Part shown: positions 3,584-22,395 of the stretch, one piece after another | How the letters are laid out: each line of letters starts with the position of its first letter | Position numbering within the stretch: the first letter of the stretch is position 1 | Source of the DNA: Alkalilimnicola ehrlichii MLHE-1 | Lineage (GTDB): Bacteria; Pseudomonadota; Gammaproteobacteria; Nitrococcales; Halorhodospiraceae | Assembly: GCF_000014785.1 (NCBI RefSeq) | Contig: NC_008340.1 | Location: forward strand, 1,320,001 to 1,352,000 | Length of the DNA: 32,000 nt | Direction: 5' to 3' | The notes under the pieces: model-generated | Seen by the model: only the letters and a program-made list of their open reading frames with translations | Database searches by the model: none | What the model was told of the DNA's origin: nothing | Made by a program: the position numbers and the translations under genes

Positions 3584-3658
3584 GCAAATTCCCCCAGAGT
3601 CTTATTGTTGGTCTTCCGCTAACGGCCGGCTTCCAAACGGCCGGCGTCCAAGCCGATG

Positions 3659-4309: not shown

Positions 4310-4383
4310 CGCAGGCTAGAGCTCTTCGTCATGCTCGCTGTGGTCGTCGTAGTGCGCCATTACTCCACCCGCTAACATCTAAG

Positions 4384-4418
4384 CATTTATCTGCCGTGCG
4401 CAGCATGGCGGATAAATG
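4384..4418. repeat. 12-bp-stem hairpin (CATTTATCTGCC / GGCGGATAAATG, 11-nt loop), possibly the terminal structure of the IS91-family remnant
   Basis: The inverted repeat is read directly from the sequence, with one G-T mismatch. It lies about 280 bp downstream of the IS91-like transposase stop, where IS91-family ori ends sit. Confidence 0.35.
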
Positions 4419-4698
4419 TCTGTTGGACTGAGCCGCCCTGCCCGGAGGCACGCGCTGGGTGGTCTTCTATATAAGGGGGAAAGTATCAGGCGCCCGTGGG
4501 GCACTTCGCACCTAGCGGCGCGAACCGAGTAATGCGTGGGTCTTCCTTGAGCGACCACCGCCGGTCTCCTCGAAGCTGGCCGTGAGTTCGTTCCCTTGAT
4601 ACTGCACCAGCCCTGCCCGAATTCCAACCGATGGCCCGCAAGGGACCGCGCCTTGCTCTGAAGGCGGTCTTCTCCACACGTTCAGACGGTGCGTCGAG

Positions 4699-5088
4699 CT
4701 ACGGGGATCGTCGTCGTTCCGCCTCCTCCCGCAGCGCACGGGGTTGCAGTTCCGCGATGACGAACAAGTAGCCCGACTTGCATTCCGGGCAGGGGGTGCC
4801 AACAGCCGAGGCCTCACCCGCCAAAGCGGGCGGTTCAGTGTAGGCTGACAGTGCTTCCCGCACCTGCGCCAGCTTGGCCCTGTGACTGCGGTTAGCCAGC
4901 AGCCCAAAATGGCGGATTCGCATCAGCCCCTTCGGCAGCACGTGTAGGAGCACCCGGCGCACGAACTCCTCACCGGCAAGCGTCACCTCACGGCGCTTGC
5001 CGTTCGCCCGGTAGTCCTGGTAGCGGAACGTGACGCTGGCCTCGTCGATGGCCAGGATTCGGTCATTGTGGATGGCGCTGCGGTGCGT
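4699..5088 (-). pseudogene. IS91-family transposase remnant (C-terminal ~129 codons only)
   Basis: The frame is open from the stop at 5089-5091 down to 4699 and reads THRSAIHNDRILAIDEASVTFRYQDYRANGKRREVTLAGEEFVRRVLLHVLPKGLMRIRHFGLLANRSHR...CPECKSG. That is the characteristic C-terminal block of IS91/Y2 transposases. There is no N-terminal portion and no plausible start. Confidence 0.75.
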
Positions 5089-5258: not shown

Positions 5259-6131
5259 TCAGCGTCCCCCAGCCCGCCGCCAAGCTCGCTCCTTGGCCTC
5301 ATCCGCCTCCGCTTCATCCAACTCCGCCGTAATGGCGTTCACCAACCGCTCCCCGTCCGGGTGCCCGTTGGCCGCCGCCAGCCAAGCCCAACTCGCGGCC
5401 TCTAACTTGTCCCCCTCGTCCATGCCTTCGCCGGCGTAGTACATCTCCGCCAGCCAGGCCTGCATGGGGGCGTTAATCTGGGTGTCCGGTGAGCGGGCCC
5501 CTTCGTACAGGTAGGGCAGGGCGCGCTCGGGGTCGGGTTCGATGCCCAGGCCCTCCCGGTACATCCGCGCCAGGTAGTAGCTGCCCATGTCCAGCCCTTC
5601 CTCCAGGGCCGCTTTGAAATGCCCCTGGGCGCGCTCGGCCAGCTCGGCGGAGCCGCCGCCCACCACGTCGCTCAGCAGCACCGATCCGATCCCCAGGTGG
5701 GCCTCGTGGTGGCCCGCGTCGATGGCCACCTGGAACCAGTGTTCGGCCGCTTCCCGGTCGGGCGTCACCCACGCCCCCTCCAGGTAGGCCCAGGCGACGC
5801 GGGTGGCGTGCTCGGTGCGGCCGGCCTCCACGGCGCGCTGGTACCAGTGCAGCGCCTGTTGTCCGTCTGCCTCCACGCCCAGGCCCTCCTGGTGGAAGTA
5901 GCCCAGGTGCACCTTGGCCCGGGCGCTGCCCGCCGAGGCGGCGGACTCCAGCCACGCCAGGGCTTCGGCGTAGTCCTCCTGATCAGCGTGGGCCAGGGCG
6001 ATCTCCCGTTGGCCCTCGGCGCTGTGGTCGTCGGCGGCGCTTTCCTCCCAAGGCGGCGGGCCCGCCAATGCCGGGCCGGTGGTCAGGGCCAGGGAGAGCA
6101 GGGCGGAGCAAAGCAGGGAACGGGTGCGCAT
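5259..6131 (-). CDS. secreted Sel1-like repeat (SLR/TPR-like) protein
   Basis: The ORF track gives 5259..6170. I prefer the ATG at 6131, which gives a signal peptide (MRTRSLLCSALLSLALTTGPALA) and has a GAGG upstream. Sel1-type units repeat (AKVHLGYFHQEGLGVEADGQQALHWYQRAVEAG, YYLARMYREGLGIEPDPERALPYLYEGA). Confidence 0.8.
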   Translation of the reverse strand: MRTRSLLCSALLSLALTTGPALAGPPPWEESAADDHSAEGQREIALAHADQEDYAEALAWLESAASAGSARAKVHLGYFHQEGLGVEADGQQALHWYQRAVEAGRTEHATRVAWAYLEGAWVTPDREAAEHWFQVAIDAGHHEAHLGIGSVLLSDVVGGGSAELAERAQGHFKAALEEGLDMGSYYLARMYREGLGIEPDPERALPYLYEGARSPDTQINAPMQAWLAEMYYAGEGMDEGDKLEAASWAWLAAANGHPDGERLVNAITAELDEAEADEAKERAWRRAGGR

Positions 6132-6196
6132 GGTCGGTGCCTCGGATTGGCTCGGTGGAACGATGCGCATTCTAAGGCCATGAATGGCCTGTCAAT

Positions 6197-6232: not shown

Positions 6233-6250
6233 TTGTCACGAAACCGTCAT
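6233..6250 (+). promoter_or_regulatory. candidate Pho box of the pstC promoter
   Basis: TTGTCAC-GAAA-CCGTCAT, two 7-mers with a 4-nt spacer. A -10-like TACCAT at 6261-6266 lies 10 nt downstream, which is canonical Pho promoter geometry. The site is 58 nt upstream of the pstC ATG. Confidence 0.5.
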
Positions 6251-6307
6251 GCCGGGCGCCTACCATCGCCGTCACTTCATCCACCACGGCGAGTTCACAC
6301 CTTGACC

Positions 6308-8623
6308 ATGACGGACACCTCCCCAGCCGCGGCGGGCGGCACCAGCGGCCGTTATCTCCCCAGCGAAGAGCAGCGCAGGCGCTGGCGCCGGTGGCGTCAC
6401 GTGAAGGACTGGATCAGCAAGGGCAGCATCGCCACCTTCGGGGTGGGGGTGATCGTCGCCCTAGGGCTGATCTTCGTTTACCTCTTCTCCGAGACCCTGC
6501 CCATCTTCGGCGACCCGGAGATCCGGCCGGTGTCCACCTACGCCGCCCCGGGCGGGACCGACTCCGGCCGCACCCTGCATACCGCCATGGAGCGCTACCA
6601 GGAGGTGGCGGTGCGCTTCACCGAGGAGGGAGGCGTCTACTTCTTCCGCCCCGGTAGCGGCGAGTTGCTGGACGAGTACCGCCTGAACCGGCCGGAGGGC
6701 GTGGAGGTGCGCAGCTTCGACGTGGCCGAGGCGCGCACGCGCCTGGTGGGTTACGGCTTGTCCGACGGCACCGCCATCATGGCCCGCCACGATTACGACG
6801 TCAGCTACACGGAAGGGCGGCGCGCCATCACCCCCAGCATCACCTACCCGGAAGGCGAGGGCGAGCCGCTGGAGGTCTTTGCCGAGGAGGGGCTGCCCCT
6901 GGACGCCATCACCGTGCAGCGCGGCCGGCGAGGCAGTGCGGTGGTGGCGGCCAACAACGAGGCCGAGGCGCTGCGCCTGGTGATGTTCGAAGAGGAGACG
7001 GACTTCCTCACCGGCGCGGCCACGGTGGAGCGCAAGATCTACGAACTGCCCTGGCCGGAGGCCGGCGTCGAGGTGACCCAGATCCTGCTGGACACCACCA
7101 TGCGCAACCTGTTCGTGGGCGGTGCCGACGGCCGGCTGCACTTTTTCGACGTCTCCAACCTCAACCGCCCCGAGCTGGTCAGCAGCCAGCGGGCCATCAC
7201 CGGCGAGGGCGCCGAGGTGACGGCCATGGACTTTCTGCTGGGGGCGGCGTCCATGATCGTGGGCGGGTCCGATGGCTCGGTGAGCCAGTGGATAATCACC
7301 CGGGGGGAGGATCGCAGCCGCAGCCTGACCGAGGTGCGCAGCTTCGACGCCCACGCCGCGCCCATCTCGGTGATCGCCCCCGAGCATGGCCGCAAGGGCT
7401 TTGCCACCGGCGCCGAGGACGGCACCGTGCAACTGGCTTACGCCACGTCGGCCCGGACCTTCTCGCGGATCGGTCTGGAGGGCGCCGACCGGGTGGACGG
7501 CCTGGCCATGGCGCCGCGCCAGGACGCCATGTTGGCGGTGGGGGGCGATGGCACCTTCCACTTCCTGGCGGTGGACAACCCCCACCCGGAGGTCTCCTTC
7601 TCCGCCCTCTGGCAGAAGGTCTGGTACGAGGGGCGCAACAACCCGGCCTACGTCTGGCAGTCCTCCTCGGCCACCCAGGAGTTCGAGCCCAAGTTTTCGC
7701 TGGTGCCGCTGACGGTGGGCACCTTGAAGGCGGCGTTCTACGCCATGCTCTTCTCCATCCCCATCGCGGTGCTGGGGGCCATCTATTCGGCCTACTTCAT
7801 GGCGCCGAAGATGCGCCAGATCACCAAGCCCACCATCGAGATCATGGAGGCCCTGCCCACGGTCATCCTCGGCTTCCTGGCCGGGCTGTGGGCCGCGCCC
7901 TTCTTCGAGCGCAACCTGCCGGCGGTCTTCTCCATCCTGATCGTCATGCCCATCGCCATGGTGTTCGCCGCCTACTTCTGGACGCGGGTGATGCCGGAGG
8001 GCATCCGCCGCCTGGCCCCGGCGGGCTGGGAGGCGGCGCTGCTGATCCCGGTGGTGCTGCTGGTGGGGTGGCTGGGGGTGACCGCCAGCCCCTTCCTGGA
8101 GCTGGCCTTCTTCGGCGGCGACATGCGCCAGTGGCTCACCGACCAGGGCATCAACTACGACCAGCGCAACGCCCTGGTGGTGGGGGTGGCCATGGGCTTC
8201 GCGGTGATCCCGACCATCTATTCCATCTCCGAGGACGCCATATTTAACGTGCCCAAACACCTGACCCAGGGCTCCCTGGCGCTGGGGGCGACCCCCTGGC
8301 AGGCGATGGTGACGGTGGTGCTGCTCACCGCCAGCCCGGGCATCTTCTCCGCCATCATGATCGGCTTCGGCCGCGCCGTGGGCGAGACCATGATCGTGCT
8401 GATGGCGACGGGCAACAGCCCGGTGGTCAACTTCAACCTCTTCGAGGGCATGCGCACCCTGTCGGCGAACATCGCCGTGGAGATGGGCGAGGCGGCGGTG
8501 GGCAGCACCCACTTCCGCATTCTCTTCCTGGCGGCACTGGTGCTCTTCCTGATGACCTTCGTGGTGAACACGGCGGCGGAGATCGTGCGCCACCGCCTGC
8601 GCAAGAAGTACAGCACCCTGTGA
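6308..8623 (+). CDS. pstC: phosphate ABC transporter permease PstC, long form with an N-terminal extracytoplasmic extension of roughly 450 aa
   Basis: The C-terminal ~300 aa is a typical PstC permease core (EFEPKFSLVPLTVGTLKAAFYAMLFSIPIAV...EDAIFNVPKHLTQGSLALGATPWQ...). The ATG at 6308 is preferred over the track's 6233 start, which falls inside the promoter region. Operon context is pstA, pstB and phoU. Confidence 0.9.
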   Translation: MTDTSPAAAGGTSGRYLPSEEQRRRWRRWRHVKDWISKGSIATFGVGVIVALGLIFVYLFSETLPIFGDPEIRPVSTYAAPGGTDSGRTLHTAMERYQEVAVRFTEEGGVYFFRPGSGELLDEYRLNRPEGVEVRSFDVAEARTRLVGYGLSDGTAIMARHDYDVSYTEGRRAITPSITYPEGEGEPLEVFAEEGLPLDAITVQRGRRGSAVVAANNEAEALRLVMFEEETDFLTGAATVERKIYELPWPEAGVEVTQILLDTTMRNLFVGGADGRLHFFDVSNLNRPELVSSQRAITGEGAEVTAMDFLLGAASMIVGGSDGSVSQWIITRGEDRSRSLTEVRSFDAHAAPISVIAPEHGRKGFATGAEDGTVQLAYATSARTFSRIGLEGADRVDGLAMAPRQDAMLAVGGDGTFHFLAVDNPHPEVSFSALWQKVWYEGRNNPAYVWQSSSATQEFEPKFSLVPLTVGTLKAAFYAMLFSIPIAVLGAIYSAYFMAPKMRQITKPTIEIMEALPTVILGFLAGLWAAPFFERNLPAVFSILIVMPIAMVFAAYFWTRVMPEGIRRLAPAGWEAALLIPVVLLVGWLGVTASPFLELAFFGGDMRQWLTDQGINYDQRNALVVGVAMGFAVIPTIYSISEDAIFNVPKHLTQGSLALGATPWQAMVTVVLLTASPGIFSAIMIGFGRAVGETMIVLMATGNSPVVNFNLFEGMRTLSANIAVEMGEAAVGSTHFRILFLAALVLFLMTFVVNTAAEIVRHRLRKKYSTL

Positions 8624-12465: not shown

Positions 12466-13476
12466 CTACAGGCCGTACTTGGGCGGGAAGTAGGACAGCG
12501 GGGGCTCGCGGTTCAGCCACTCCTCGGCGAGTTCTTCGGCTTCGGCGATTTCATCTTCGGTCATGCGGTCGCGTTCTCGCCCAAGAATGCCCTCGGCCGT
12601 GCTATCTCGCGTCTCTTCATAAACCGCGTGAAGTATGGCCCAACCCTTGACCGTGTCATCTGCGTCGTCCGGGCAGAAATCCGCCCAGGTATTATCCAGG
12701 TAGCACCAGCCAACGGCGAGACGACCGCTGATATGGCCATGTCGGGAACTTTTTTTCGTCCATTTCCAGTCTTCGTTATACCGCTCCTGATCCCGCAAGG
12801 CTAGGGACAGGTTGTACATCCCCGGGGCGTAGCCCTGCTCGGCGGCCTTGCGGAACCAGGGCTCGGCGGCCTTGACGTCTTCCAGCGGCGGGGGCCATTC
12901 GCCGGAGCGCTCCTGAATACGACTCGCCCACAGGTCTTGTGCCTGTGGGAGGCCCGCCCTGGCAGCGTTGCGTAACCAGTTCCGACCCTCTTCCACCTCC
13001 TCCAGCGCAACATAGATCGAATACAGTGCAAGCATGGCATCCGGATCCCCTTCCTCGGCTTTGGGGAGTTCCTGGCCCAGGGCCATTTCTGCCCAGGTGT
13101 CATGCTCTTCGGGGCAGATGTCGGCCAGCTCGCAGATCATGCCCCAATTCAGACGAAGCATGGCGTAGGGATCCCCGCCCTCCGCCGCGCGGTGGTACCA
13201 GTCGATGGCCTCGTGGGACATGCCACGGTCCATAAAGCGGTAGATCTCGCCAAGGGTGTACATGGACTCAACATCGCCGGCCTCGGCGGCCTTTTCCAGG
13301 TGGTGGATGGCCACGCTGCGCCAGCGGATGCCGTACAGGCGCATGCCTTCTTCCTTGGCCTGTTGTTGCTCGGCATCGAGCTCTGGGGATGTTGTGTCTT
13401 CGCCTTTGTTGGCTTGAGCCGTCCCGGCCCATAAGCCAACGATCAAGAGGAAAACCATTGTTCTTGTGCAGGGCAT
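12466..13476 (-). CDS. periplasmic Sel1-like repeat protein, putative T6SS immunity protein (distal/orphan copy)
   Basis: The track ORF 12466..13803 is over-extended. The ATG at 13476 gives the signal peptide MPCTRTMVFLLIVGLWAGTAQA; alternative starts are 13524 and 13458. SLR units are present (AIDWYHRAAEGGDPYAMLRL, GRNWLRNAARAGLPQAQ, AEPWFRKAAEQGYAPGMYNL). It is a paralog of 15156..16169. Confidence 0.8.
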   Translation of the reverse strand: MPCTRTMVFLLIVGLWAGTAQANKGEDTTSPELDAEQQQAKEEGMRLYGIRWRSVAIHHLEKAAEAGDVESMYTLGEIYRFMDRGMSHEAIDWYHRAAEGGDPYAMLRLNWGMICELADICPEEHDTWAEMALGQELPKAEEGDPDAMLALYSIYVALEEVEEGRNWLRNAARAGLPQAQDLWASRIQERSGEWPPPLEDVKAAEPWFRKAAEQGYAPGMYNLSLALRDQERYNEDWKWTKKSSRHGHISGRLAVGWCYLDNTWADFCPDDADDTVKGWAILHAVYEETRDSTAEGILGRERDRMTEDEIAEAEELAEEWLNREPPLSYFPPKYGL

Positions 13477-13534: not shown

Positions 13535-15151
13535 CTACTGAATGTGGCGGGAAAGCCAGCCGGCATTCTGTCTGTATTTCCTTTGCATATCGGATTGCTC
13601 AGGGGTAGCGCGGCCCCCTGATATGAACTGATCCAGCCGCCCTCGGTTCTCGGCATACGCATCGGCCCTCGATGCGTCGGTAGGCTGTCCGTCTCGGGCC
13701 ATGCGCACCACGGCCTTTTCAAACAACTTTTGCGCCGGGTTCGGGTGCTCTGCGGAGAACTCGCGCCGGGGCCCGTAGACGCCGGCCAGGACGCCGGAGA
13801 CAATCCATTGCAGGCAGTTGAGGATCGCCCGCTGGTGGAATCCTCGTGCTTGCTCCACGTTGTATTGGTTCTCCTCCACCTCGAACGCCTGCGGCTGACT
13901 GGTCAGGGTATAAAGCAGCGGCCCGAGGGCCTCGGGCGGCAGTTGGCGCACCCAGGCGCGCAGTTGCTGGACGCGCTTGTGGTGTTCCCGACTGGCCTCC
14001 GGGTCATACCGGAGGTTGGGCGGTTCCTCGGCGGCGAGTTCGTAGGCGATCCGGCTGGCCATGTCCCGCTCCCGGGTGAACCATTCGATCAGCTGGCGCA
14101 GGCGGTGGGTGCCGCGCAGCAGGAGCAGGGCGGGTTCGACCAGGGTGATGGCGGCGAGGTAGGCCAGGCGGCTCATCTCCTCGAAGGCGTCTTCGTCGAT
14201 CCAGTCGACGCGCTCGTAGCCGACCTCCACCAGCGCCTGGTGCATCATGGCGAGCCAGAGGTCGAGGTGGCGGGTGTCGAGGGCCAGGCGCACGCTGCCC
14301 CCGCCGCCGACGCCGAGCACCAGGCGCAGGGAGGCGTGCAGCACGAAGCGGCCGTTGTGCAGGCCGAGCCGGAAGGCGGCCTCGCCGCCGACCCCGACGC
14401 GTACTTCGGGGTTGATCTCGGCACGGGTCAGGGTTTTCCACTGGCGGGCCTCGTCCCGGGCGTAGCCCGCGCGGTCGATCTCGGCCATGGCCTGGTAGCG
14501 CGGCAGGCGCGCGAGCAGGTTCGCCGGCGGCTGCCAGAGCAGACGGCAGTGGTTGTGGCCGGCCAGTCCGGTGCCGGCGAAGGCCTCCAGTCGGGCATCG
14601 ACGCCGTCGCGCTCCACGGGGGCGAGGCCGTTGACGGCGAGACGGCCCCCGGCGGTGTCGAGCCCGACGCCGCCGCCCAGCGCCACGGAGACGGCGGCAT
14701 GGCCGTGGAGCACGGGCTCGATGTGCAGGCAGTAGCGGCCGATGGAGCGGGCATCGGGGTGATTGGCATCAAGGCCGAAGGGGACGATGACCGGCTCCGC
14801 CTTGGCGGGATCGGGCAGCTGGATGGGCGCGAGGGCGATCTCGCCACGGCCGAAGTCGAAGGCGTGCTGGCCCTGCGTTCGCAGCGGCGTCGTCGCGCCG
14901 TTGGCCCCGGGCTCCACGGTGGGAACGATGACGTGACCGTCCAGGGCCAGGCTGGGGGTGACCGCGAAACTCTGCCCGGATTGGCCGGGACCGGTGCCGA
15001 CGGCGTCGTCATGGCGGGCGGTGATCCCGATGCGGACGCCGTTTCCGGAGGCATCGTGCTCCGGGTCGGCCTGCGCCAGGGATTCGGGCAGGCGGCAACT
15101 ATTCCAAGGGAGCCAACCGGTCCGGGCGGTGACCTGCCAAAACAGGAGCAT
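13535..15151 (-). CDS. orphan effector C-terminal module, homologous to the C-terminal ~45% of the upstream T6SS effector and lacking the N-terminal region
   Basis: 538-aa ORF that starts 4 nt after the stop of the proximal immunity gene. From about residue 12 it aligns with the effector (LAQADPE.. vs VAQAEPE..). About 830 nt (14042-14872) is nearly identical to 16688-17518, and the tail is diverged. Confidence 0.75.
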   Translation of the reverse strand: MLLFWQVTARTGWLPWNSCRLPESLAQADPEHDASGNGVRIGITARHDDAVGTGPGQSGQSFAVTPSLALDGHVIVPTVEPGANGATTPLRTQGQHAFDFGRGEIALAPIQLPDPAKAEPVIVPFGLDANHPDARSIGRYCLHIEPVLHGHAAVSVALGGGVGLDTAGGRLAVNGLAPVERDGVDARLEAFAGTGLAGHNHCRLLWQPPANLLARLPRYQAMAEIDRAGYARDEARQWKTLTRAEINPEVRVGVGGEAAFRLGLHNGRFVLHASLRLVLGVGGGGSVRLALDTRHLDLWLAMMHQALVEVGYERVDWIDEDAFEEMSRLAYLAAITLVEPALLLLRGTHRLRQLIEWFTRERDMASRIAYELAAEEPPNLRYDPEASREHHKRVQQLRAWVRQLPPEALGPLLYTLTSQPQAFEVEENQYNVEQARGFHQRAILNCLQWIVSGVLAGVYGPRREFSAEHPNPAQKLFEKAVVRMARDGQPTDASRADAYAENRGRLDQFISGGRATPEQSDMQRKYRQNAGWLSRHIQ

Positions 15152-15155
15152 TCCG

Positions 15156-16169
15156 CTACAGGCCGTACTTGGGCGGGAAATAGGACAGCGGGGGCTCGCG
15201 GTTCAGCCACTCCTCGGCGAGTTCTTCGGCTTCGGCGATTTCTTCGTCGCTGAGAAGATCCGAAAACTCCTCCATATACCAGCGAGCATCATCATGGCGA
15301 GTTTCTTCGTACGCTGCATGAAGGATGGCCCAGCCCTTGATCGGATCGCTGTCATTGGGGCAGTAAGGCCGGTCCTCGGGCTTGAGATGGCACCGACCGT
15401 AAGTCACTCGATTATTTACATAGCCATGCTCGGACCCGCGCACGACCCATTTCCATGAGCCCTCGACGTCGTCCTGTCGCCAGAGATTGCCGGCCAGGTT
15501 ATTCATAGCCGGGGCATACCCTTGTTCGGCCGCCTTGCGGAACCAGGGCTCGGCGGCCTGCACGTCTTCCAGCGGCGGGGGCCACTCGCCGGAGCGTTCC
15601 TGAATACGACTCGCCCATAGGTCTTGTGCCTGTGGGAGGCCCGCCCTGGCAGCGTTGCGCAACCAGTTCCGACCTTCTTCAACATCTTCTAGCGCAACAT
15701 AGATCGAATACAGTGCAAGCATGGCATCCGGATCCCCTTCCTCCGCTTTGGGGAGTTCCCGGTCCAGAGCCATTTCTGCCCAGGAGTCATGCTCTTCGGG
15801 GCAGATGTCGGCCAGCTCGCAGATCATGCCCCAATTCAGACGGAGCATGGCGTAGGGATCCCCGCCCTGCGCCGCGCGGTGATACCAGTCGATCGCTTCG
15901 CGGGACATACCCCGGTCCAGCAGCCGGTTGGCCTCGCCCAGGTAGTACATGGCCTCGACATCACCGGCCTCGGCCGCTTTTTCCAACGGGGGCTGCATGT
16001 CGATCCATTCATGCAGGCCCCACAGGCGCATGCCTTCTTCCTTGGCTTGATGGAGGGGTTCGTCAAGGCTGAGCTCAGAGGTGGCACTGGCCGGTATCAA
16101 CGAACTCCCCACTGCTATCAGAAATGCTGGAAGCCAGAAACGTGTGACGCTTTTGCCGATGAGAGACAT
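15156..16169 (-). CDS. periplasmic Sel1-like repeat protein, putative cognate T6SS immunity protein (proximal copy)
   Basis: The ATG at 16169 has an AAGGA SD and gives a signal peptide (MSLIGKSVTRFWLPAFLIAVGSSLIPASA). The track start at 16211 is a GTG. It has SLR units and lies immediately downstream of the effector stop at 16220. Confidence 0.8.
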   Translation of the reverse strand: MSLIGKSVTRFWLPAFLIAVGSSLIPASATSELSLDEPLHQAKEEGMRLWGLHEWIDMQPPLEKAAEAGDVEAMYYLGEANRLLDRGMSREAIDWYHRAAQGGDPYAMLRLNWGMICELADICPEEHDSWAEMALDRELPKAEEGDPDAMLALYSIYVALEDVEEGRNWLRNAARAGLPQAQDLWASRIQERSGEWPPPLEDVQAAEPWFRKAAEQGYAPAMNNLAGNLWRQDDVEGSWKWVVRGSEHGYVNNRVTYGRCHLKPEDRPYCPNDSDPIKGWAILHAAYEETRHDDARWYMEEFSDLLSDEEIAEAEELAEEWLNREPPLSYFPPKYGL

Positions 16170-16219
16170 GGCGCTGTTCCTTTGCTTGCGCAATTCAAAA
16201 TACGGTCCCACTGTAAAAC

Positions 16220-17611
16220 TCAGTTCAGCGGGGTAATGTGTCGGGAGAGGGTTCTTACCGCACGCTCATACCGTTCGCCGATCGCGCCGACGCGGCTGGT
16301 CGGTGAGGCTCCAGGCATAAAGTCATCCAGACGCTTGCGGTTTTCCGCATAAGCATCGGCCCTGGATTCGTCGGTAGGCTGTCCATCTCGGCCCATGCGC
16401 ACCACGGCCTTCTCGAACAATTTCTGCGCCGGGTTGGGCTGCTCGGCCGAGAACTCGCGCCGCGGCCCGTAAACGCCATTCTGGGCGCCAGAGACGATCC
16501 ATTGCAGGCAATTGAGGATGGCCCGTTGGTGGAATTCTCGTGCTTGTTCCGCGTTGTATTGGTCGCCTTCCACCTCGAACGCCTGCGGCCGACTGGTCAG
16601 GGTGTATAACAGCGGCCCCAGGGCCTCGGGCGGTAGCTGGCGCACCCAGGCGGCAATGGCGTCCCGTTGCGGGTCGTTGACGATGGTGTAGGCGATCCGG
16701 CTGGCCATGTCCCGGTCCCGGGTAAACCACTCGATCATCTGGCGCAGTCGGTGGGTGCCGCGCAGCAGGAGCAGGGCGGGTTCGACCAGGGTGATGGCGG
16801 CGAGATAGGCCAGGCGGCTCATCTCCTCGAAGGCGTCTTCGTCGATCCAGTCGACGCGCTCGTAGCCGACCTCCACCAGCGCCTGGTGCATCATGGCGAG
16901 CCAGAGGTCGAGGTGGCGGGGGTCAAGCGCCAGGCGCACGCTGCCCCCGCCGCCGACGCCGAGCACCAGGCGCAGGGAGGCGTGCAGCACGAAGCGGCCG
17001 TTGTGCAGGCCGAGCCGGAAGGCGGCCTCGCCGCCGACGCCGACGCGCACCTCGGGGTTGATCTCGGCGGCGGTCAGGGTTTTCCACTGGCGGGCCTCGT
17101 CCCGGGCGTAGCCCGCGCGGTCGATCTCGGCCATGGCCTGGTAGCGCGGCAGGCGCGCGAGCAGGTTCGCCGGCGGCTGCCAGAGCAGACGGCAGTGGTT
17201 GTGGCCGGCCAGTCCGGTGCCGGCGAAGGCCTCCAGTCGGGCATCGACGCCGTCGCGCTCCACGGGGGCGAGGCCGTTGACGGCGAGACGGCCCCCGGCG
17301 GTGTCGAGCCCGACGCCGCCGCCCAGCGCCACGGAGACGGCGGCATGGCCGTGGAGCACGGGCTCGATGTGCAGGCAGTAGCGGCCGATGGAGCGGGCAT
17401 CGGGGTGATCGGCATCAAGGCCGAAGGGGACGATGACCGGCTCCGCCTTGGCGGGATCGGGCAGCTGGATGGGCGCGAGGGCGATCTCGCCACGGCCGAA
17501 GTCGAAGGCGTGCTGGCCGCGCAATCGCAACACGACCCGCGAGCCGTCCTGCCCGCGGGGCCACGGTGGCGGTGATGCCCAGCTCGTCGAGAGCGAGGCT
17601 GGGGGCCACAC
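16220..17611 (-). CDS. T6SS effector, C-terminal (toxin-domain) reading frame; it continues 17415..19508 after a frameshift
   Basis: The frame opens with a GTG at 17611. From GQHAFDFGRGEIALAPIQL onward it is collinear with the orphan module 13535..15151. The paralog shows the ancestral gene was one continuous frame. Confidence 0.7.
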   Translation of the reverse strand: MWPPASLSTSWASPPPWPRGQDGSRVVLRLRGQHAFDFGRGEIALAPIQLPDPAKAEPVIVPFGLDADHPDARSIGRYCLHIEPVLHGHAAVSVALGGGVGLDTAGGRLAVNGLAPVERDGVDARLEAFAGTGLAGHNHCRLLWQPPANLLARLPRYQAMAEIDRAGYARDEARQWKTLTAAEINPEVRVGVGGEAAFRLGLHNGRFVLHASLRLVLGVGGGGSVRLALDPRHLDLWLAMMHQALVEVGYERVDWIDEDAFEEMSRLAYLAAITLVEPALLLLRGTHRLRQMIEWFTRDRDMASRIAYTIVNDPQRDAIAAWVRQLPPEALGPLLYTLTSRPQAFEVEGDQYNAEQAREFHQRAILNCLQWIVSGAQNGVYGPRREFSAEQPNPAQKLFEKAVVRMGRDGQPTDESRADAYAENRKRLDDFMPGASPTSRVGAIGERYERAVRTLSRHITPLN

Positions 17612-19508
17612 TGACCGTCCGGCCGCCGGCGTTGCCCCCGGTGTCGATGCCGGCGGTGTCCTGGTAGCGGGCGGTCAGGCCGATGCGGGCACCGGTTCCG
17701 GAAGCGGCTGTCTCCGGTTCGGCCTGCGCCACGGGTCCGGGCCGGCGCAGCCACAGGGGTGCCTCCCCGGACAGCGCCCGGTCGCGCCGGTCGGGCTCGG
17801 CGTATGCGCCGGCCAGCAGGCGCAGGAGCTGCGCCGGGCCACTGGCATCGAACAGGCGCATGGGGTGGTTGAGCGGGTCGGCGAACAGGATCCGGCGCAG
17901 GCGCCGGCCCCACTCCTCCCGGGCGCTGTCGTCGGCAAGGCGGTCGATGACCAGGCCCTGGTGGTCGAGGTCGTGGAAGAAGCGTTCCGGCTCGAACAGC
18001 CCGAGCGGCTCGCTGTGCCAGTCGGGGTTCCAGTCGAGCCGCCGGCAGCCGCGTCGGGTGAGCCACCCGGTCAGTGCCGTGTCGGGCAGGGAGCGGGGCT
18101 CGGTGACCGTGCGGCTGTCGTGCGCGATGGCGGCATCGCGCTGGCGGGCGTAGTGGGGGCGGGTCTCGCCCAGCTGGTGCAGGCTCAGGTGATCGAGGGT
18201 GCGCTGCCGACCGGGGCCGCTGAACTCGCGCAGGGGGAAGTCGGCGCGCACCAGCCGGTGGATCGGGGGCGGGCGGTAGGGTTCGGGGTCGCGGATGTCG
18301 TCGGGGCCCAGGTCCCAGTGCAGGACGCGCCTCGGGCGCGTGCGGTCCACCCGGCGCCGGGCCGTGCGGTAGAGGCGGTCCATGCGCTCGCGCAGCCGGT
18401 CGAACCGCGCCTGCTCGTCGGTGAACAGGAAGATGGGCAGCGGGGTGGCCCGGCCCGTGCCCTGTTCCCACTCCCTGAGCCGCGTGTCCACGTCCTCGCG
18501 CAAGGCGTCGAGTTCGTCCAGGGTCGCGAAGTAGCGGGCCACGTAGTCCACGCCGTCGGCGAAGCCGGCGTCCGGGTCCTCAGCCAGCGCCAGCTCGGGG
18601 GTGGCCACGCCCAGCCCGGCCAGCTCGATGAGACTGTCGATGTAGTGGCGGTAGTCCTGCTCCAGTTGCGGGATGTAGTGCTCGATCACGGAGGCGATCT
18701 CGCAGCGTTCGACGGCCTCTGGTACCGGGTCCTGGTCGCAGAGCGCCACATGCCGGCGGTATTGCTCCAGGATCTTATGGAGCGGCCGCGTCGGTGGCAG
18801 GCCCTGACCCTGTTCCAGGTGGGACCGAGCACCCTGGAAAGCAAGCTCCCGCCGCCGGTGATAGCGCTGCAGCGCCTCGCGGATGCGCGCCTCGCTGTCG
18901 CCGTGGACCAGGGCGCTATCGACGACATAGCCGGCCTTCTCGGCCTTGTCCAGGCCGCGTTGATAAAGGGCCTGAAGTGCGTCGAGATGGTCGTTGCTCT
19001 CGTGGATGCGTGCCGGTTCCGGGCATTGGGTCGGTACGGCCGAAGGCATTGAATGATCGCCGGACCAGGATTGCGAGGTGCTCACGCTGGTGGTGCCCTG
19101 GAAAGGCACGCCGTCCACCACCCGTTGCAGCAGCGTGTCCGGGGCCTCGTCCTGAAGGGCGGCGAGCTGCTGGAGGGTCTGCGCGAACCGTTGGCGGTCC
19201 GCTTCCCCCAGGAAACTGACCGGATGCGCTGGCAGGAAGCTGTCCAGCACGCCCGCCTCCTCGGACAGCCGCCGGTTGCGCTCGTCGCGGTCGTCCACGG
19301 CGGCGATGTCGGCCAGCTTGTCGGCCGCGTGGTGCATCGCGGCGGCGGCTGTGGCGTTGAGCAGCCAGAACTCGCCGGAGCCGGTGAGATAGACGATGTC
19401 CGCCCACAGGAACGTTGCGCACAGGGGGCGCGGGTCTTCGTGGAAGAGGTCATCGTCGCGGCCGCGCGGTCCCGCGGGCCAGACCTGGGGGGCGATGGAG
19501 TCGGTCAT
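17415..19508 (-). CDS. T6SS cargo effector, N-terminal reading frame (697 codons); family unrecognised
   Basis: The ATG at 19508 overlaps the adaptor gene's stop as ATGA. Homology to the orphan module begins in this frame (AQAEPETAASGTGARIGLTARYQD...SLALDE) and then jumps to the other frame near 17544-17565. The last ~50 codons (RLAGRVAIARPARLRLRP...) look like out-of-frame noise. Confidence 0.7.
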   Translation of the reverse strand: MTDSIAPQVWPAGPRGRDDDLFHEDPRPLCATFLWADIVYLTGSGEFWLLNATAAAAMHHAADKLADIAAVDDRDERNRRLSEEAGVLDSFLPAHPVSFLGEADRQRFAQTLQQLAALQDEAPDTLLQRVVDGVPFQGTTSVSTSQSWSGDHSMPSAVPTQCPEPARIHESNDHLDALQALYQRGLDKAEKAGYVVDSALVHGDSEARIREALQRYHRRRELAFQGARSHLEQGQGLPPTRPLHKILEQYRRHVALCDQDPVPEAVERCEIASVIEHYIPQLEQDYRHYIDSLIELAGLGVATPELALAEDPDAGFADGVDYVARYFATLDELDALREDVDTRLREWEQGTGRATPLPIFLFTDEQARFDRLRERMDRLYRTARRRVDRTRPRRVLHWDLGPDDIRDPEPYRPPPIHRLVRADFPLREFSGPGRQRTLDHLSLHQLGETRPHYARQRDAAIAHDSRTVTEPRSLPDTALTGWLTRRGCRRLDWNPDWHSEPLGLFEPERFFHDLDHQGLVIDRLADDSAREEWGRRLRRILFADPLNHPMRLFDASGPAQLLRLLAGAYAEPDRRDRALSGEAPLWLRRPGPVAQAEPETAASGTGARIGLTARYQDTAGIDTGGNAGGRTVSVAPSLALDELGITATVAPRAGRLAGRVAIARPARLRLRPWRDRPRAHPAARSRQGGAGHRPLRP

Positions 19509-20296
19509 GTGCCGGCCTCCCTGCCCGCGGCACCCGGTTTGGAACGGGCTGTCTGATCCTTCGCGCCGCCGGGTTTCGCCAATCGGCGGCGCCACTCGTC
19601 GGGGAGGTGAATGCCCGCCTCACGAAGGGTTCGGAGCTGCTCAAGCATGTCGGGCGGGACGGCCTCCAGCGGAATTCCAAGGTCCTGCCCAAGCCACCAT
19701 GCCAGCGGGGCGTCGTCCAGCGCCCGGCACTGGTTGTGATCGAGAAACGGTGGGCTGGTCGGCCCGCGCGGCTCGGCCCCGACCCAGCAGCGCCAACCGG
19801 CGGTGGGCGTCGGTGTATAGACCGGTCCGAGTACCTGCAGCCACAGGTCAAAATGGGTGCGCGGCGCGCTGGCCAGGAGGGCGGTCCAGGCCTCCGGTTG
19901 CTGCACCTGTACCAGCGACTGCCCTCCGTCGGCGTCGTCCATCACGGCAAGCCGCTGCATCTGCTCGACGAAGGGCTCCAGGGCACCGCCGGGCGGCCGG
20001 CACATCCAGCCCAGCGCCAGCTCGCGGCAAAGCATTTCGGCCTGTTCGAACGCGGGGCTGCCCGGTGTGAGCCGCGCGGCCCAGGGCCCGTAAGCTGACA
20101 ATGAACGGAGTTCCGTCCCCGCGAACAGGGGAACGATGTCGGTAGCGCCATCAAGGGTGTAGAGGGCAAGGGCCTCTTCCGGGATGCGGTGGGGGTCGAT
20201 GATCAGCCCCACCCATTCCCCGTCGGCGCCATCGCCGGGGCCTTCGACGGTGTGGCTTCGCTCACCAATCCGGGTCAGCCACTCGTGCACGGGCAT
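19505..20296 (-). CDS. DUF4123-type T6SS effector adaptor/chaperone (Tap/Tec-like)
   Basis: 263-aa ORF directly after vgrG and directly before the large effector. The pattern GLIIDPHRIPEEALALY...IVPLFAGTELRSLSAYGPWAARL...GWMCRPPG resembles the DUF4123 N-terminal core. The call rests on position and motifs only. Confidence 0.65.
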   Translation of the reverse strand: MPVHEWLTRIGERSHTVEGPGDGADGEWVGLIIDPHRIPEEALALYTLDGATDIVPLFAGTELRSLSAYGPWAARLTPGSPAFEQAEMLCRELALGWMCRPPGGALEPFVEQMQRLAVMDDADGGQSLVQVQQPEAWTALLASAPRTHFDLWLQVLGPVYTPTPTAGWRCWVGAEPRGPTSPPFLDHNQCRALDDAPLAWWLGQDLGIPLEAVPPDMLEQLRTLREAGIHLPDEWRRRLAKPGGAKDQTARSKPGAAGREAGT

Positions 20297-22395
20297 TCCT
20301 CCCTGGAACAGTTACCGGACTCCGTGTCCTTGCCACACAATTGAATGCGGGCGGCCTCGCTGCGTGCATAGCGCTCGGGGTCCGGGCCAACGCCCTTTAC
20401 GACTCGTGGGGGCGGTTCGGCCGGCACGTGCCCCGGCCGTGCGGGCGTCTGGGCCCGCTGTGCACTCCCCGAGCCCGGGCTGCCTCCGGAGTTTATACGG
20501 ATGCCGGGGCCGCTGAGGGTGATGCCGGAGGGGTCGAGCTTGATGAAGCTGCCGCCGGCCCGGAGGGTGATCTCGGCACCGGCCTCCAGGATCAGCTTGA
20601 CCCCGGCGGCATGGTGGATCTCGTGCCCAGCCTCCACCAAAAGGCACTCGCCTTGGTATTGATGGAGCGTGCCCTCCACGCTGAGATGCTGATCCCCACC
20701 GGTGCGCTCGCGCCGCTCGCCCTGCACGGTGAGGTGCTCGTCGCCGTGGATCTCCGCGAGCCGGTCGCCGTGGACGCCCAGGTGGCTGTGCCGGCCGATG
20801 GTCTCGGAGCGGTCGTTGCGGGTGTGCAGGTCGAGATCGCGCTGGGCGTGCAGGTGGATGCGCTCGGCGTCGTGGGCGTCCTCGAAGTGCAGTTCGTTGT
20901 AGCCCTCGCCGCCGTGGCTGCGACTGCGCAGCACGCTGCGGGTCTTGTGCTCGGGCAGCGGATAGGGCGGGGTGTTGTGGCCATCGTAGACCCGGCCGGT
21001 GATCACCGGCTGGTCCGGGTCGCCGGCCATGAAGTCGACAATCACCGCATGGCCCACCCGGGGCAGGAACAGCCCGCCGTAGCCGGGCCCGGCCCAGGGC
21101 TGGGCGACGCGCAGCCAGGCGCTGGCGTGCTCGTCGTCGGCGGCGTAGCGGTCCCAGGGGAAACGGACCTTGACCCGGCCGTGCTCATCGCAATGGATCG
21201 CCTCCCCCTCGGGGCCCACCACCCGGGCGATCTGCGGGCCCTCCATCCGCGGGCCGGCGCCCGGGTCGTGGGGCGGGCGCCAGTCGGTGTCGGCGGGCAC
21301 GAGGGTGAGCCGGTTGTTCAGCCGGGCCACGCCTGCCTCGTCCTCGTCGGCCAGCAGGATCGCGTCCTCTTCCAGCGCGGCGGGCTGCCGGGCGGTATGA
21401 AGGGCGCCGACCACCTGCCAGTCGCGGCGCCGTTCGCCGGCGTCGTGGCCATCGAGGGTGAAGCGCACGCCGGGGCGCAGCTCGGCAATATCGCTTTCGG
21501 CCTCGGCGGTGTGGGCGTCGGCGCGCAACTGGCCGAGCCGGACCCGGGTGAAGGCCCGGCCGCTGGTCTCGCTCTTGAACCGGCCGGGGTGGTCGTAGTG
21601 CTCGTAGGGGGTGGCCCCCGACTCGGCGCCATCATGCCCGGCTGCCCCATCCACCGCCTGCGCGTGGATCAGCCGCCGCCGGGGGGTGCGGAAATGGCGA
21701 TCCTCCAGGGTGGCGCGCTGCGCGCGCACCCGGTGGGCCTCGCGCAGGGTGTGCACATGGCGGGCCTCGGCCACGCCGCCGGCGCGGGGGCGGTAGGCCC
21801 ATTCGCCCGCCTGCCCCAGCCCCCGGTGGGTATCGGTGAACACCGGGCGGTGGCCGCCCTCGGGGGTGTCGTCGAACTCGTGGAAGTAGACGATGCCCAA
21901 CTCGGCGGCAAGCCGCTGGACAAAGGCCAGGTCGCTCTCCCGGTACTGCACCAGGTACTCGCGGGGCTCGGGGCGGTGGCGGACGGCGAAGGCGGCGTCG
22001 GTGATGCCATGTTCCGAAAGCAGGGTGTGGAGGACATCCAGCGGGCAGGCGTGCTGGAAGATGCGGGCGTTGCGGCGCAGGGCAAGGCGCCAGAGGGCGG
22101 GGCGGACGACCAGTTGGTAGGCGGTGCGCCGGGCGCCGGTGCGGCCGCGCTGGAACTCGGTGACCACGCCGTGGACCCGGCGGGTGACGCGGCCGGCCTG
22201 ATGGATGGCCAGTGCCAGGCCCTGCTCAAGCCAGTCGTCGGGGGCGAGATCGGGCGAGGGGTGGACCAGGTCCAGGGTCAGCGTGAAGGGCCGGGAGAGG
22301 TGCTCATCCAGGGTGAACCCGGTGACCCGGGGCAGGTCGGCCTCTGCCGCGCCGGGGCGCGAGAGGGCGAGGTACAGTCCGTTGTCTATTGGCAT
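20275..22395 (-). CDS. vgrG: type VI secretion system spike protein VgrG
   Basis: gp27/gp5-like VgrG hallmarks: FTLDEHLSRPFTLTLDL, YLVQYRESDLAFVQRLAAELGIVYFHEF, PRMEGPQIARVVGPEGEAIHCDEHGRVKVRFPWDR, WLRVAQPWAGPGYGGLFLPRVGHAVIVDFMAGDPDQPVITGRVYD, plus beta-helix repeats. The ATG at 22395 with a GGAG SD is preferred over the track start at 22422. Confidence 0.9.
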   Translation of the reverse strand: MPIDNGLYLALSRPGAAEADLPRVTGFTLDEHLSRPFTLTLDLVHPSPDLAPDDWLEQGLALAIHQAGRVTRRVHGVVTEFQRGRTGARRTAYQLVVRPALWRLALRRNARIFQHACPLDVLHTLLSEHGITDAAFAVRHRPEPREYLVQYRESDLAFVQRLAAELGIVYFHEFDDTPEGGHRPVFTDTHRGLGQAGEWAYRPRAGGVAEARHVHTLREAHRVRAQRATLEDRHFRTPRRRLIHAQAVDGAAGHDGAESGATPYEHYDHPGRFKSETSGRAFTRVRLGQLRADAHTAEAESDIAELRPGVRFTLDGHDAGERRRDWQVVGALHTARQPAALEEDAILLADEDEAGVARLNNRLTLVPADTDWRPPHDPGAGPRMEGPQIARVVGPEGEAIHCDEHGRVKVRFPWDRYAADDEHASAWLRVAQPWAGPGYGGLFLPRVGHAVIVDFMAGDPDQPVITGRVYDGHNTPPYPLPEHKTRSVLRSRSHGGEGYNELHFEDAHDAERIHLHAQRDLDLHTRNDRSETIGRHSHLGVHGDRLAEIHGDEHLTVQGERRERTGGDQHLSVEGTLHQYQGECLLVEAGHEIHHAAGVKLILEAGAEITLRAGGSFIKLDPSGITLSGPGIRINSGGSPGSGSAQRAQTPARPGHVPAEPPPRVVKGVGPDPERYARSEAARIQLCGKDTESGNCSREECPCTSG

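What the first reader, a model, noticed from the sequence alone, without database searches (positions are those of the whole stretch)
13535..17720. Effector C-terminal domain of about 450-520 aa that I cannot assign to any known toxin family
The duplicated domain runs from GQHAFDFGRGEIALAPIQLPDPAKAEPVIVPFGLDA... to ...RLAYLAAITLVEPALLLLRG... and on through the tail. It shows none of the motifs I looked for: no GxSxG lipase motif, HxKxxxxD phospholipase D motif, HNH or other nuclease motif, NlpC/P60-type Cys motif or ADP-ribosyltransferase motif. Instead it has glycine-rich, beta-strand-like stretches (SVALGGGVGLDTAGG, VRVGVGGEAAFRLGL, LRLVLGVGGGGSVRLAL) and a hydrophobic helix. That is loosely reminiscent of membrane-inserting or pore-forming effectors and fits an immunity protein that is periplasmic.
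Basis: inference. Interest (0 to 1): 0.7.

Follow-up and report, generated by a model that had tools for sequence, protein, structure and literature searches.

The report
TseVF-like T6SS toxin domain, duplicated
The unassignable duplicated domain is the exchangeable toxin end of a type VI secretion effector of Alkalilimnicola ehrlichii, related to a Vibrio toxin (TseVF) shown in 2026 to damage membranes from the periplasm, so it is a real but already partly known weapon, not a new kind of system.

Summary
On the minus strand lies a T6SS island: vgrG, a DUF4123 adaptor, a 1095-aa effector, a Sel1-like immunity gene, an orphan copy of the effector's last ~540 aa, and a second immunity gene. The two C-terminal copies are 88% identical.

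Pfam, NCBIfam, PDB sequences and Foldseek on confident AlphaFold models give no match, so "no known toxin family" is correct for curated libraries. The domain is nevertheless a real family: 217 clusters, mostly at the C-terminus of ~1000-1300-aa proteins. In 59 genomes it shows conserved vgrG-adaptor-effector-immunity synteny.

Profile comparison links the whole domain (98.9%, E 1.4e-17) to Vibrio LysM effectors. These match the published description of TseVF, and their immunity genes are homologous too. TseVF kills from the periplasm, does not hydrolyse peptidoglycan, binds phospholipids and permeabilises cells through its last ~180 helical residues.

By homology the window's toxic part is the C-terminal helical half. 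It is not the Gly-rich strands, nor the His/Cys residues, which are not conserved.

The domain is unrelated to VasX/Tke5. The orphan copy looks like a recombination cassette. The frameshift in the main gene is absent from a newer assembly.

Verdict: new member of a recently described kind; moderate interest.

The parts
20275..22395 (-). vgrG, the T6SS spike protein
   Evidence: Pfam Phage_GPD 1.9e-78, Gp5_trimer_C and Phage_base_V; TIGR03361 7e-163. Gene call of 706 aa in L060.
19505..20296 (-). DUF4123 (Tap/Tec-type) adaptor; its 3' end overlaps the effector start by 4 nt
   Evidence: PF13503 1.1e-7, above the gathering score. Conserved upstream of the effector in most of the 59 related loci.
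16220..19508 (-). Cargo effector, 1095 aa once the frameshift is corrected
   Evidence: The reconstruction gives one open frame. It is intact as a 1095-aa gene in assembly CP183314.1. The family is conserved end to end (A4/A6).
17557..17560 (-). Run of four C (minus strand) holding one extra base that frameshifts the effector in this window
   Evidence: It is the only gap in a 19.6-kb alignment (99.985% identity) with the newer assembly.
16922..17521 (-). Main copy, beta-rich Gly-rich subdomain (domain residues 1-200)
   Evidence: The AlphaFold2 model shows long beta-hairpins, with residues 60-105 at low confidence. Conserved Gly, Pro and Trp positions.
16220..16921 (-). Main copy, all-alpha subdomain (residues 201-433). 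It includes the hydrophobic helical hairpin at 16763-16840. The stretch equivalent to the toxic TseVF fragment 965-1141 is about 16223-16762.
   Evidence: pLDDT is mostly above 90 with 11 helices. The hairpin is the hydropathy maximum in every family member examined. hhalign to P0170. PMC12861213.
15156..16169 (-). Cognate immunity protein 1: a 337-aa Sel1-like repeat protein with an N-terminal signal peptide
   Evidence: Sel1 Pfam hit. Hits to PDB Sel1-repeat proteins at 4e-12. Homologous to the gene downstream of the Vibrio LysM effector, E 3e-9. Signal peptides in 103 of 107 homologues.
13535..15151 (-). Orphan effector C-terminal cassette (538 aa = P0003): linker plus beta subdomain (14276-14875) plus alpha subdomain (13535-14275)
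   Evidence: The identity gradient runs from dS 0.006-0.08 at the 5' end to dS 0.38-0.65 at the 3' end, with dN/dS 0.13 in residues 341-400.
12466..13476 (-). Immunity protein 2, cognate to the orphan: a 336-aa Sel1-like protein with a signal peptide
   Evidence: 69% identical to immunity 1, with divergent patches at the N-terminus and at residues ~215-305. Gene call in L060.

Best explanation
The domain is the C-terminal toxin and immunity-specificity module of a VgrG/DUF4123-loaded T6SS cargo effector of Alkalilimnicola ehrlichii MLHE-1. It has two parts: a Gly-rich beta subdomain (~200 aa) and an all-helical subdomain (~230 aa) that contains a conserved hydrophobic helical hairpin. It belongs to the same family as the toxic C-terminus of Vibrio fluvialis TseVF. 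Most likely mechanism, by inference from that relative: after injection into the periplasm of a neighbouring cell, the helical last ~180 residues bind phospholipid and permeabilise the cytoplasmic membrane without enzymatic catalysis, possibly as an alpha-helical pore former. The beta subdomain probably helps with targeting or keeps the toxin soluble. Sibling cells are protected by a soluble periplasmic Sel1-like repeat protein that binds the toxin directly. The second copy is an orphan cassette. It lacks the N-terminal loading region, is nearly identical to the main gene at its 5' end, and is divergent at its 3' end together with its own immunity gene. It therefore serves as a recombination reservoir for switching toxin/immunity specificity, while its immunity gene also protects against that variant. 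Shown here: gene order, duplication, family membership, absence of known domains or folds, homology to the Vibrio LysM effectors and to their immunity genes. Inferred: that the Vibrio proxy protein equals the TseVF type, membrane damage as the activity, and the function of the orphan.
For: - **Island anatomy.**
- **A real family.** There are 217 clusters at E<=1e-3, with the domain at the C-terminus of ~1000-1300-aa proteins.
- **Conserved synteny.** vgrG-DUF4123-effector-immunity order recurs in 59 loci from Halomonadaceae, Pseudomonas, Photobacterium and Gilliamella.
- **Periplasmic immunity.** Immunity genes stand in tandem arrays of up to 5, and 103 of 107 copies have signal peptides.
- **No conserved catalytic residues.** Conserved positions in the domain are Gly, Pro, Trp, Leu and Phe.
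- **Hydrophobic hairpin.** One hydrophobic helical hairpin is conserved in all family members examined.
- **Homology to the Vibrio LysM effector P0170.** hhalign gives 98.9%, E 1.4e-17 over 368 columns covering the whole domain, and 96.4%, E 1.2e-9.
- **P0170 fits the published TseVF.** It is 1189 aa against 1197. It has N-terminal LysM. W1054/E1069/R1074/W1089 compare with W1056/E1071/R1076/W1091. Its hydrophobic segment is 944-967 against a predicted TM at 941-969. Its locus is hcp-vgrG-DUF4123 (173 aa)-effector-3x(332-334 aa) (PMC12861213 read).
- **Homologous immunity.** Immunity 1 matches the Vibrio downstream gene at E 3e-9.
- **TseVF experiments (PMC12861213).** It is toxic only in the periplasm and does not hydrolyse peptidoglycan. 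It causes propidium iodide uptake and binds PE/PC liposomes. Fragment 965-1141 is the strongest killer. E1071A and R1076A mutants remain toxic. TsiVF binds with Kd ~0.15 uM.
- **Orphan logic.** The dS gradient and purifying selection are. Independent orphans occur in L022, L027 and L033. There is a second effector-immunity-orphan locus in the same genome. Alkalispirillum carries arrays of orphans.
Against: - I could not align the actual TseVF sequence. The link rests on a Vibrio proxy that fits its published description.
- Identity to that proxy is only 24-26%.
- One of the two Trp residues essential in TseVF (W1091) has no equivalent in the window protein; Ala388 lies near that position.
- There is no bona fide transmembrane helix (hydropathy maximum about 1.5).
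- Known T6SS pore formers usually have membrane-embedded immunity proteins, whereas this one is soluble.
- The pore-forming claim for TseVF itself is only a proposal in a single paper.
- Foldseek found no similarity to colicins or other pore-forming toxins.
Confidence: 0.6

Rival explanations
1. The domain is a new periplasmic enzyme (a lipid- or cell-wall-degrading hydrolase) whose active site lies in the helical subdomain and is blocked by the Sel1-like immunity protein, as with the phospholipase D effectors Tle5/PldA/PldB and their Sel1-like Tli5 proteins.
For: Soluble periplasmic Sel1-like immunity genes occur in tandem arrays, a pattern typical of Tle/Tli pairs; SLR immunity for Tle5b is cited in PMC9022076. 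A small conserved polar set (Q331, Q332, E370, R375, N394, D399) sits between the variable patches. LysM is present in 16 of 40 relatives.
Against: There is no GxSxG or HxKxxxxD motif and no conserved Ser, His or Cys. Confident models show no enzyme fold match. In TseVF the equivalent E1071A and R1076A mutants stay toxic, and purified protein does not hydrolyse peptidoglycan (PMC12861213).
Confidence: 0.15
2. The effector is a divergent member of the VasX/Tke5 (BTH_I2691) pore-forming family, which has the same gene order and size.
For: It shares the vgrG-DUF4123-~1000-aa effector layout. A metagenomic orphan fragment (P0009) joins this domain's beta part to a BTH_I2691-like tail. A near-identical VgrG is followed by a VasX-like toxin in L064.
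Against: NF041559 and VasX_N hit 0 of 40 family members and neither window ORF. hhalign of the family profile against a bona fide BTH_I2691 toxin gives a probability of 0.1%. The Tke5 structure 9R8G does not appear among the Foldseek hits. There are no TM helices. The immunity protein is soluble, not membrane-embedded.
Confidence: 0.03
3. The C-terminal domain is not the toxin but an immunity-docking or targeting module, and the killing activity lies in the conserved N-terminal ~570 aa. In that case the orphan copy is a decaying remnant.
For: The N-region has invariant E305, E428 and R563 and near-invariant D554 across 49 diverse sequences. TseVF constructs 1-947 and 1-969 kept some toxicity.
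Against: TseVF 965-1141 alone was the strongest killer. Orphan cassettes in four lineages keep exactly this domain together with an immunity gene. dN/dS is 0.13 in the orphan's residues 341-400. hhalign finds only the C-terminal domain shared with the Vibrio type.
Confidence: 0.1

Closest known systems
TseVF-TsiVF of Vibrio fluvialis VflT6SS2 (PMC12861213, January 2026)
   Same: - The whole C-terminal domain is homologous, shown through the Vibrio proxy P0170 (98.9%, E 1.4e-17).
- It has the same hydrophobic hairpin.
- The W...FExAxxRM motif is shared (W341, E370, R375).
- The adaptor-effector-immunity order downstream of vgrG is the same.
- The immunity protein is a homologous repeat protein of ~333-337 aa with a signal peptide.
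   Different: - The window protein has no N-terminal LysM.
- hhalign did not find the N-terminal ~600 aa to be related.
- The second essential Trp (W1091) is absent.
- Identity is only 24-26%.
- Orphan toxin cassettes are present here.
- The host is a haloalkaliphile with 68% G+C.
- The published PSI-BLAST set of 277 homologues did not reach this LysM-less branch.
VasX / Tke5 / Ptx2 (BTH_I2691 family, NF041559; PMC13133200, PMC12909789)
   Same: It is a cargo effector of ~1000 aa loaded by a DUF4123 adaptor on VgrG. It acts on the membrane from the periplasm, has mixed alpha and beta regions, and some members carry LysM.
   Different: No sequence, profile or fold similarity was found. It has no MIX/VasX_N domain and no transmembrane helices. 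Its immunity protein is soluble and Sel1-like rather than an inner-membrane protein.
Tle5 (PldA/PldB)-Tli5 phospholipase D pairs
   Same: It is vgrG-linked, and its periplasmic Sel1-like repeat immunity genes stand in tandem arrays.
   Different: It has no HxKxxxxD motifs and no PLD fold or Pfam hit.
Rhs/CdiA polymorphic toxins with orphan CT-immunity cassettes (PMC3482391)
   Same: A displaced C-terminal toxin fragment plus immunity gene lies downstream of the full-length gene. The 5' end is a homogenised homology region and the 3' end is divergent.
   Different: It has no Rhs/YD repeats, PAAR or FHA-type delivery domains. The exchangeable unit is a ~430-540-aa two-subdomain module, and only its last ~160 aa vary.

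Membership tests
TseVF-like T6SS toxins | C-terminal region homologous to the toxic TseVF region (residues ~666-1141, with the killing fragment at 965-1141) | tested here: met
   hhalign of A7 against Vibrio P0170 gives 98.9%, E 1.4e-17, aligning P0160 657-1076 with P0170 694-1107. A3 against P0170 gives 96.4%. Caveat: P0170 is a proxy. The TseVF sequence itself was not available, and identity with the TseVF type rests on matching length, LysM, motif positions and locus.
TseVF-like T6SS toxins | Conserved residues W1056, E1071, R1076 and W1091 | tested here: inconclusive
   W341, E370 and R375 are present and conserved in at least 87% of the family. The equivalent of W1091 falls in a 2-3-residue deletion near Ala388.
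TseVF-like T6SS toxins | Cognate periplasmic TPR/Sel1-like immunity protein of ~333 aa with a signal peptide, encoded immediately downstream | tested here: met
   The immunity proteins are 337 and 336 aa with signal peptides. BLASTP against L065:7144-8148 gives E 3e-9.
TseVF-like T6SS toxins | DUF4123-type adaptor and vgrG upstream | tested here: met
TseVF-like T6SS toxins | N-terminal LysM domain (275 of 277 published homologues) | tested here: not met
   No LysM in the window effector. 16 of 40 family representatives have it.
TseVF-like T6SS toxins | Periplasmic toxicity, phospholipid binding and membrane permeabilisation | not testable with these tools
   Needs expression and biophysical assays.
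BTH_I2691 (VasX/Tke5) | Match to NF041559 or Pfam VasX_N (MIX_II) | tested here: not met
   0 hits for the window ORFs and for 40 representatives. Positive controls L062 and L064 hit at 6e-35 and 2e-30.
BTH_I2691 (VasX/Tke5) | Profile or fold similarity to a family member | tested here: not met
   hhalign probability is 0.1%. Foldseek against PDB gave no hit with E<0.001 and 9R8G is not listed. I could not verify that 9R8G is in the library.
BTH_I2691 (VasX/Tke5) | Multiple transmembrane helices and a membrane-embedded immunity protein | tested here: not met
   The hydropathy maximum is about 1.5, in a single hairpin. The immunity protein is a soluble Sel1-like protein.
Tle1-4 lipases | GxSxG catalytic motif or alpha/beta-hydrolase fold | tested here: not met
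Tle5 phospholipase D | Dual HxKxxxxD motifs | tested here: not met
Polymorphic toxin with orphan cassettes | Displaced C-terminal toxin fragment plus immunity gene downstream, sharing a 5' homology region with the main gene | tested here: met
Polymorphic toxin with orphan cassettes | Rhs/YD, PAAR or filamentous haemagglutinin delivery scaffold | tested here: not met
   No such Pfam domain.

The most novel reading that the evidence does not exclude
The domain represents a structurally new class of membrane-permeabilising toxin: a beta sandwich plus a helical bundle with no counterpart in the PDB. It would be kept harmless in solution by a Sel1-like repeat protein rather than by a membrane-embedded immunity protein. 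It would diversify by cassette exchange of only its last ~160 residues, and occasionally by joining to tails of the unrelated VasX-type toxins.
Probability: 0.35. Interest if true: 0.6.

Novelty: new member of a known kind. Interest (0 to 1): 0.42.

Why it matters
The work ties a widespread, unannotated effector family to one experimentally studied toxin. The family is found in Halomonadaceae, Pseudomonas, Vibrionaceae, bee-gut Gilliamella and Alkalilimnicola, and has no Pfam or NCBIfam model.

It delimits the domain and its two subdomains, and predicts which ~180 residues kill and which patches set immunity specificity. It also shows that a non-Rhs cargo effector can carry orphan toxin/immunity cassettes.

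This gives a tractable natural set of variant toxin-immunity pairs: two in this window and a third pair elsewhere in the genome. These can be used to work out how a soluble repeat protein neutralises a membrane-damaging toxin whose fold has not been solved.

Tried and rejected
- **Curated domain libraries.** Pfam and NCBIfam scans of the window ORFs and of 40 family representatives returned only LysM.
- **PDB sequence searches.** Searches with domain and full-length profiles gave nothing significant; calcineurin at E 0.16 and SecA at 0.015 were judged chance.
- **Fold searches.** Foldseek of two models against PDB and BFVD gave best E values of 0.04-0.08 and TM about 0.1, with Hsp70 NBD hits judged noise.
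- **Plasmid collection.** tblastn found no match.
- **Second word-indexed protein search.** A 40-sequence profile returned only 5 close relatives.
- **VasX/BTH_I2691 kinship.** I considered it because of gene order and the chimeric fragment P0009. I rejected it after fetching two real BTH_I2691 toxins and comparing profiles.
- **His/Cys catalytic hypothesis.** Rejected because those residues are not conserved.
- **Frameshift as a real pseudogene.** Judged unlikely, because a newer assembly of the same strain lacks the extra base.
- **TseVF sequence.** I could not obtain it, as the paper has no held supplements.


Full report
**What is there.** The window comes from Alkalilimnicola ehrlichii MLHE-1; the best protein hit is Mlg_1142 at 100% identity. 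The finding lies in a minus-strand island between phoU and a Yip1 gene. The genes, in transcription order, are:

- vgrG (20275-22395).
- A DUF4123 adaptor (19505-20296).
- A large effector (16220-19508).
- A Sel1-like gene (15156-16169).
- A 538-aa ORF that repeats the effector's C-terminus (13535-15151).
- A second Sel1-like gene (12466-13476).

The copies are 88% identical in protein and 91.6% identical over 1064 nt. Note that the stated span also contains the first immunity gene.

**The frameshift.** In the window the effector is split into two overlapping ORFs by one extra C in a C-run at 17557-17560. A newer assembly of the same strain (CP183314.1, locus L060) is 99.985% identical over 19.6 kb. 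Its only gap is that base, which gives an intact 1095-aa gene. The frameshift is therefore most likely a sequencing error or a stock variant, not biology.

**No known family in curated resources.**

- Pfam and NCBIfam give no hit for the effector pieces at E<=0.1.
- Across 40 diverse relatives the only domain found is N-terminal LysM, in 16 of them.
- PDB sequence searches with profiles found nothing significant.
- AlphaFold2 with a 62-sequence alignment gave a confident model of the 433-aa domain (mean pLDDT 78.9, pTM 0.80). Residues 1-200 form long beta-hairpins, with a low-confidence Gly-rich stretch at 60-105. Residues 201-433 form eleven helices, mostly with pLDDT above 90.
- The full-length model (pTM 0.66) shows a helical N-region, a disordered linker (about residues 574-660) and then this domain.
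- Foldseek found nothing with E<0.001 in PDB or BFVD for either model.

**It is a real, widespread family.** A profile search of 1.84 billion representative proteins found 217 clusters at E<=1e-3 and 29 at E<=1e-30. Most are proteins of 1000-1300 aa with the domain at the C-terminus.

A scan of species genomes gave 59 loci in Halomonas, Vreelandella, Billgrantia, Franzmannia, Pseudomonas, Photobacterium, Gilliamella and others. Nearly all loci with enough flank show the same order: vgrG, DUF4123, effector, then one to five homologues of the window's Sel1-like gene.

Of 107 such immunity copies, 103 start with a signal-peptide-like segment ending in AWA/ALA. The window's two immunity proteins match solved Sel1-repeat proteins and are 69% identical to each other, with divergent patches.

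**Conservation argues against an enzyme.** Across 54 diverse relatives the positions conserved in at least 80% are Gly, Pro, Trp, Leu, Phe, Ala, Ile and Met, plus Q331, Q332 and R375. E370, N394 and D399 are conserved at 50-80%.

The most hydrophobic segment in every member examined is the same helical hairpin (window LAYLAAITLVEPALLLL). Its hydropathy is 1.5-1.9, which is borderline for a membrane segment.

**Link to a characterised toxin.** A literature search turned up TseVF/TsiVF of Vibrio fluvialis (PMC12861213). Its published properties are:

- The effector is 1197 aa with only an N-terminal LysM recognised. It sits behind vgrG and a 176-aa Tap-like gene.
- The next gene encodes a 333-aa TPR-like protein with a signal peptide.
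- TseVF kills E. coli only when sent to the periplasm.
- It does not hydrolyse peptidoglycan, causes propidium iodide uptake and cell-content leakage, and binds PE and PC liposomes.
- Its fragment 965-1141 (eight helices) is the strongest killer, while fragment 666-964 is not toxic.
- W1056A and W1091A mutants lose activity, whereas E1009A, E1071A and R1076A do not.
- TsiVF binds the toxin with a Kd of about 0.15 uM.

I could not obtain the TseVF sequence. Among my distant profile hits, however, is P0143, whose 90% cluster contains 1189-aa Vibrio LysM proteins such as P0170. P0170 fits the TseVF description closely:

- W1054, E1069, R1074 and W1089 lie at a constant offset of -2 from the published residues.
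- Its hydrophobic segment is at 944-967, against the published TM at 941-969.
- Its locus reads hcp, vgrG, a 173-aa DUF4123 gene, the effector, then three genes of 332-334 aa.

Profile comparison of the window's family with P0170 gives 98.9% probability and E 1.4e-17 over 368 columns. This covers the whole domain and nothing upstream of it. The window's immunity protein aligns collinearly with the first Vibrio downstream gene (24% identity over 220 aa, E 3e-9).

The toxin domain and the immunity protein are therefore both homologous to the TseVF-type pair, while the N-terminal delivery part differs. Mapped onto the window, the killing fragment corresponds to domain residues ~254-433. These are nt 16223-16762 in the main copy and 13538-14116 in the orphan.

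**Not VasX/Tke5.** The gene order and size recall the BTH_I2691 pore formers. One metagenomic fragment (P0009) even joins this domain's beta part to a tail that matches the end of NF041559.

I fetched two bona fide BTH_I2691 toxins from metagenomes: L062 (6e-35) and L064 (2e-30). In L064 the toxin sits behind a VgrG almost identical to the window's and is followed by a membrane protein. The family profile shows no relation to them (hhalign 0.1%). None of 40 members hits NF041559, and the Tke5 structure 9R8G is not among the Foldseek hits. P0009 is best read as a recombinant orphan or an assembly chimera.

**The duplicate is an orphan cassette.** It begins at the end of the N-region (about residue 560 of the effector), so it lacks the part that would bind the adaptor and VgrG.

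Divergence between the two copies follows a gradient:

| Domain residues | dS | Amino-acid identity | dN/dS |
|---|---|---|---|
| 1-100 | 0.006 | 98% | 1.86 (only 3 differences) |
| 101-270 | ~0.08 | 96-99% | 0.12-0.23 |
| 271-340 | 0.38 | 79% | 0.42 |
| 341-400 | 0.65 | 87% | 0.13 |
| last ~33 | saturated | 30% | not computed |

This is the signature of a homogenised 5' homology arm and a selected, divergent 3' specificity region. The immunity genes diverge in parallel.

The same genome has a second locus with a 1100-aa paralogue, an immunity gene, another orphan (P0002) and a 275-aa gene, without vgrG. Independent orphans occur in Onishia, Halomonas sp. I1 and Larsenimonas.

Alkalispirillum mobile carries a row of shorter orphans. 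Some are internally deleted, and they mix three variable modules combinatorially.

**Mechanism and confidence.**

- Shown: anatomy, family, synteny, periplasmic immunity, absence of known domains and folds, homology to the Vibrio LysM effectors and their immunity genes, and orphan structure.
- Inferred: that the Vibrio proxy stands for TseVF, that the window's helical tail permeabilises membranes non-enzymatically, and that the orphan serves specificity switching.

I put 0.6 on the combined statement. The main rival is a new periplasmic enzyme (0.15). The Tle-like immunity arrangement favours it, but the lack of catalytic residues and the TseVF mutant data weaken it.

**Novelty and interest.** The domain is a new, LysM-less member of a toxin family described only in January 2026 and still absent from Pfam and NCBIfam. 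Its predicted fold has no solved relative. It is ordinary in kind (a T6SS effector-immunity pair) but useful as a set of natural variants. I score interest at 0.42.

Noticed in passing
window 17557-17560: One extra C splits the effector gene into two ORFs in this assembly, which is why only a 379-aa piece (Mlg_1142) is annotated. Assembly CP183314.1 of the same strain lacks the base and has an intact 1095-aa gene.
   Followed up: yes
P0009 (ENA contig of 1113 nt); L064 1182-3473 and 3792-4784: P0009 is an orphan-like fragment that joins this domain's beta subdomain (81% identical) at ...LDLWLAMLHQAL to the tail of a VasX/BTH_I2691-type toxin (a TM helix plus a beta-rich end). L064 shows a VgrG nearly identical to the window's, followed by such a VasX-like toxin and a membrane immunity protein. 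This suggests that effector modules are swapped behind the same VgrG.
   Followed up: partly
L061 (CP183314.1 387688-407319): This is a second paralogous module in the same genome: a 1100-aa effector, a Sel1-like immunity gene, a 543-aa orphan (P0002) and a 275-aa gene. It has no vgrG or DUF4123 gene upstream, only a 51-aa ORF.
   Followed up: partly
Alkalispirillum mobile proteins P0004-P0008 (DFR31_2482-2488, DFR31_1999): A row of orphan fragments all start MDAAGTGLAAHNHCRLLWQPP. Some carry internal deletions of the Gly-rich hairpins. Three variable modules in the helical tail are shuffled combinatorially among them.
   Followed up: partly
window 1-5000: This is a lower-G+C stretch (56-60% against ~68-70% elsewhere). 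It holds a NERD-domain gene (1557-2156) and several ORFs without Pfam hits. It borders a Y2-transposase-like remnant at about 4700-5074, so it is probably a mobile or foreign insertion.
   Followed up: no
window 5259-6170 (-): A third Sel1-repeat protein (303 aa, Pfam Sel1 9e-25, signal peptide) lies on the other side of the pst operon. It is only about 25% identical to the two immunity proteins, and its role is unknown.
   Followed up: partly
window 6233-8623 (+): This PstC-like ABC permease gene encodes an unusually long protein (771-796 aa). Its N-terminal ~450 aa give weak WD40/beta-propeller Pfam hits.
   Followed up: no
window 13730-15253 (+), 16667-17575 (+), 17074-18471 (-): Long ORFs overlap the effector genes on the opposite strand or in other frames. 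They are Ala/Gly/Arg/Pro-rich artefacts of the high G+C content, not genes.
   Followed up: partly
L005, L012, L015, L022 (Halomonadaceae loci): Four to five tandem paralogues of the Sel1-like immunity gene follow a single effector. This is reminiscent of the immunity arrays described for Vibrio cholerae and for Tle lipases.
   Followed up: partly
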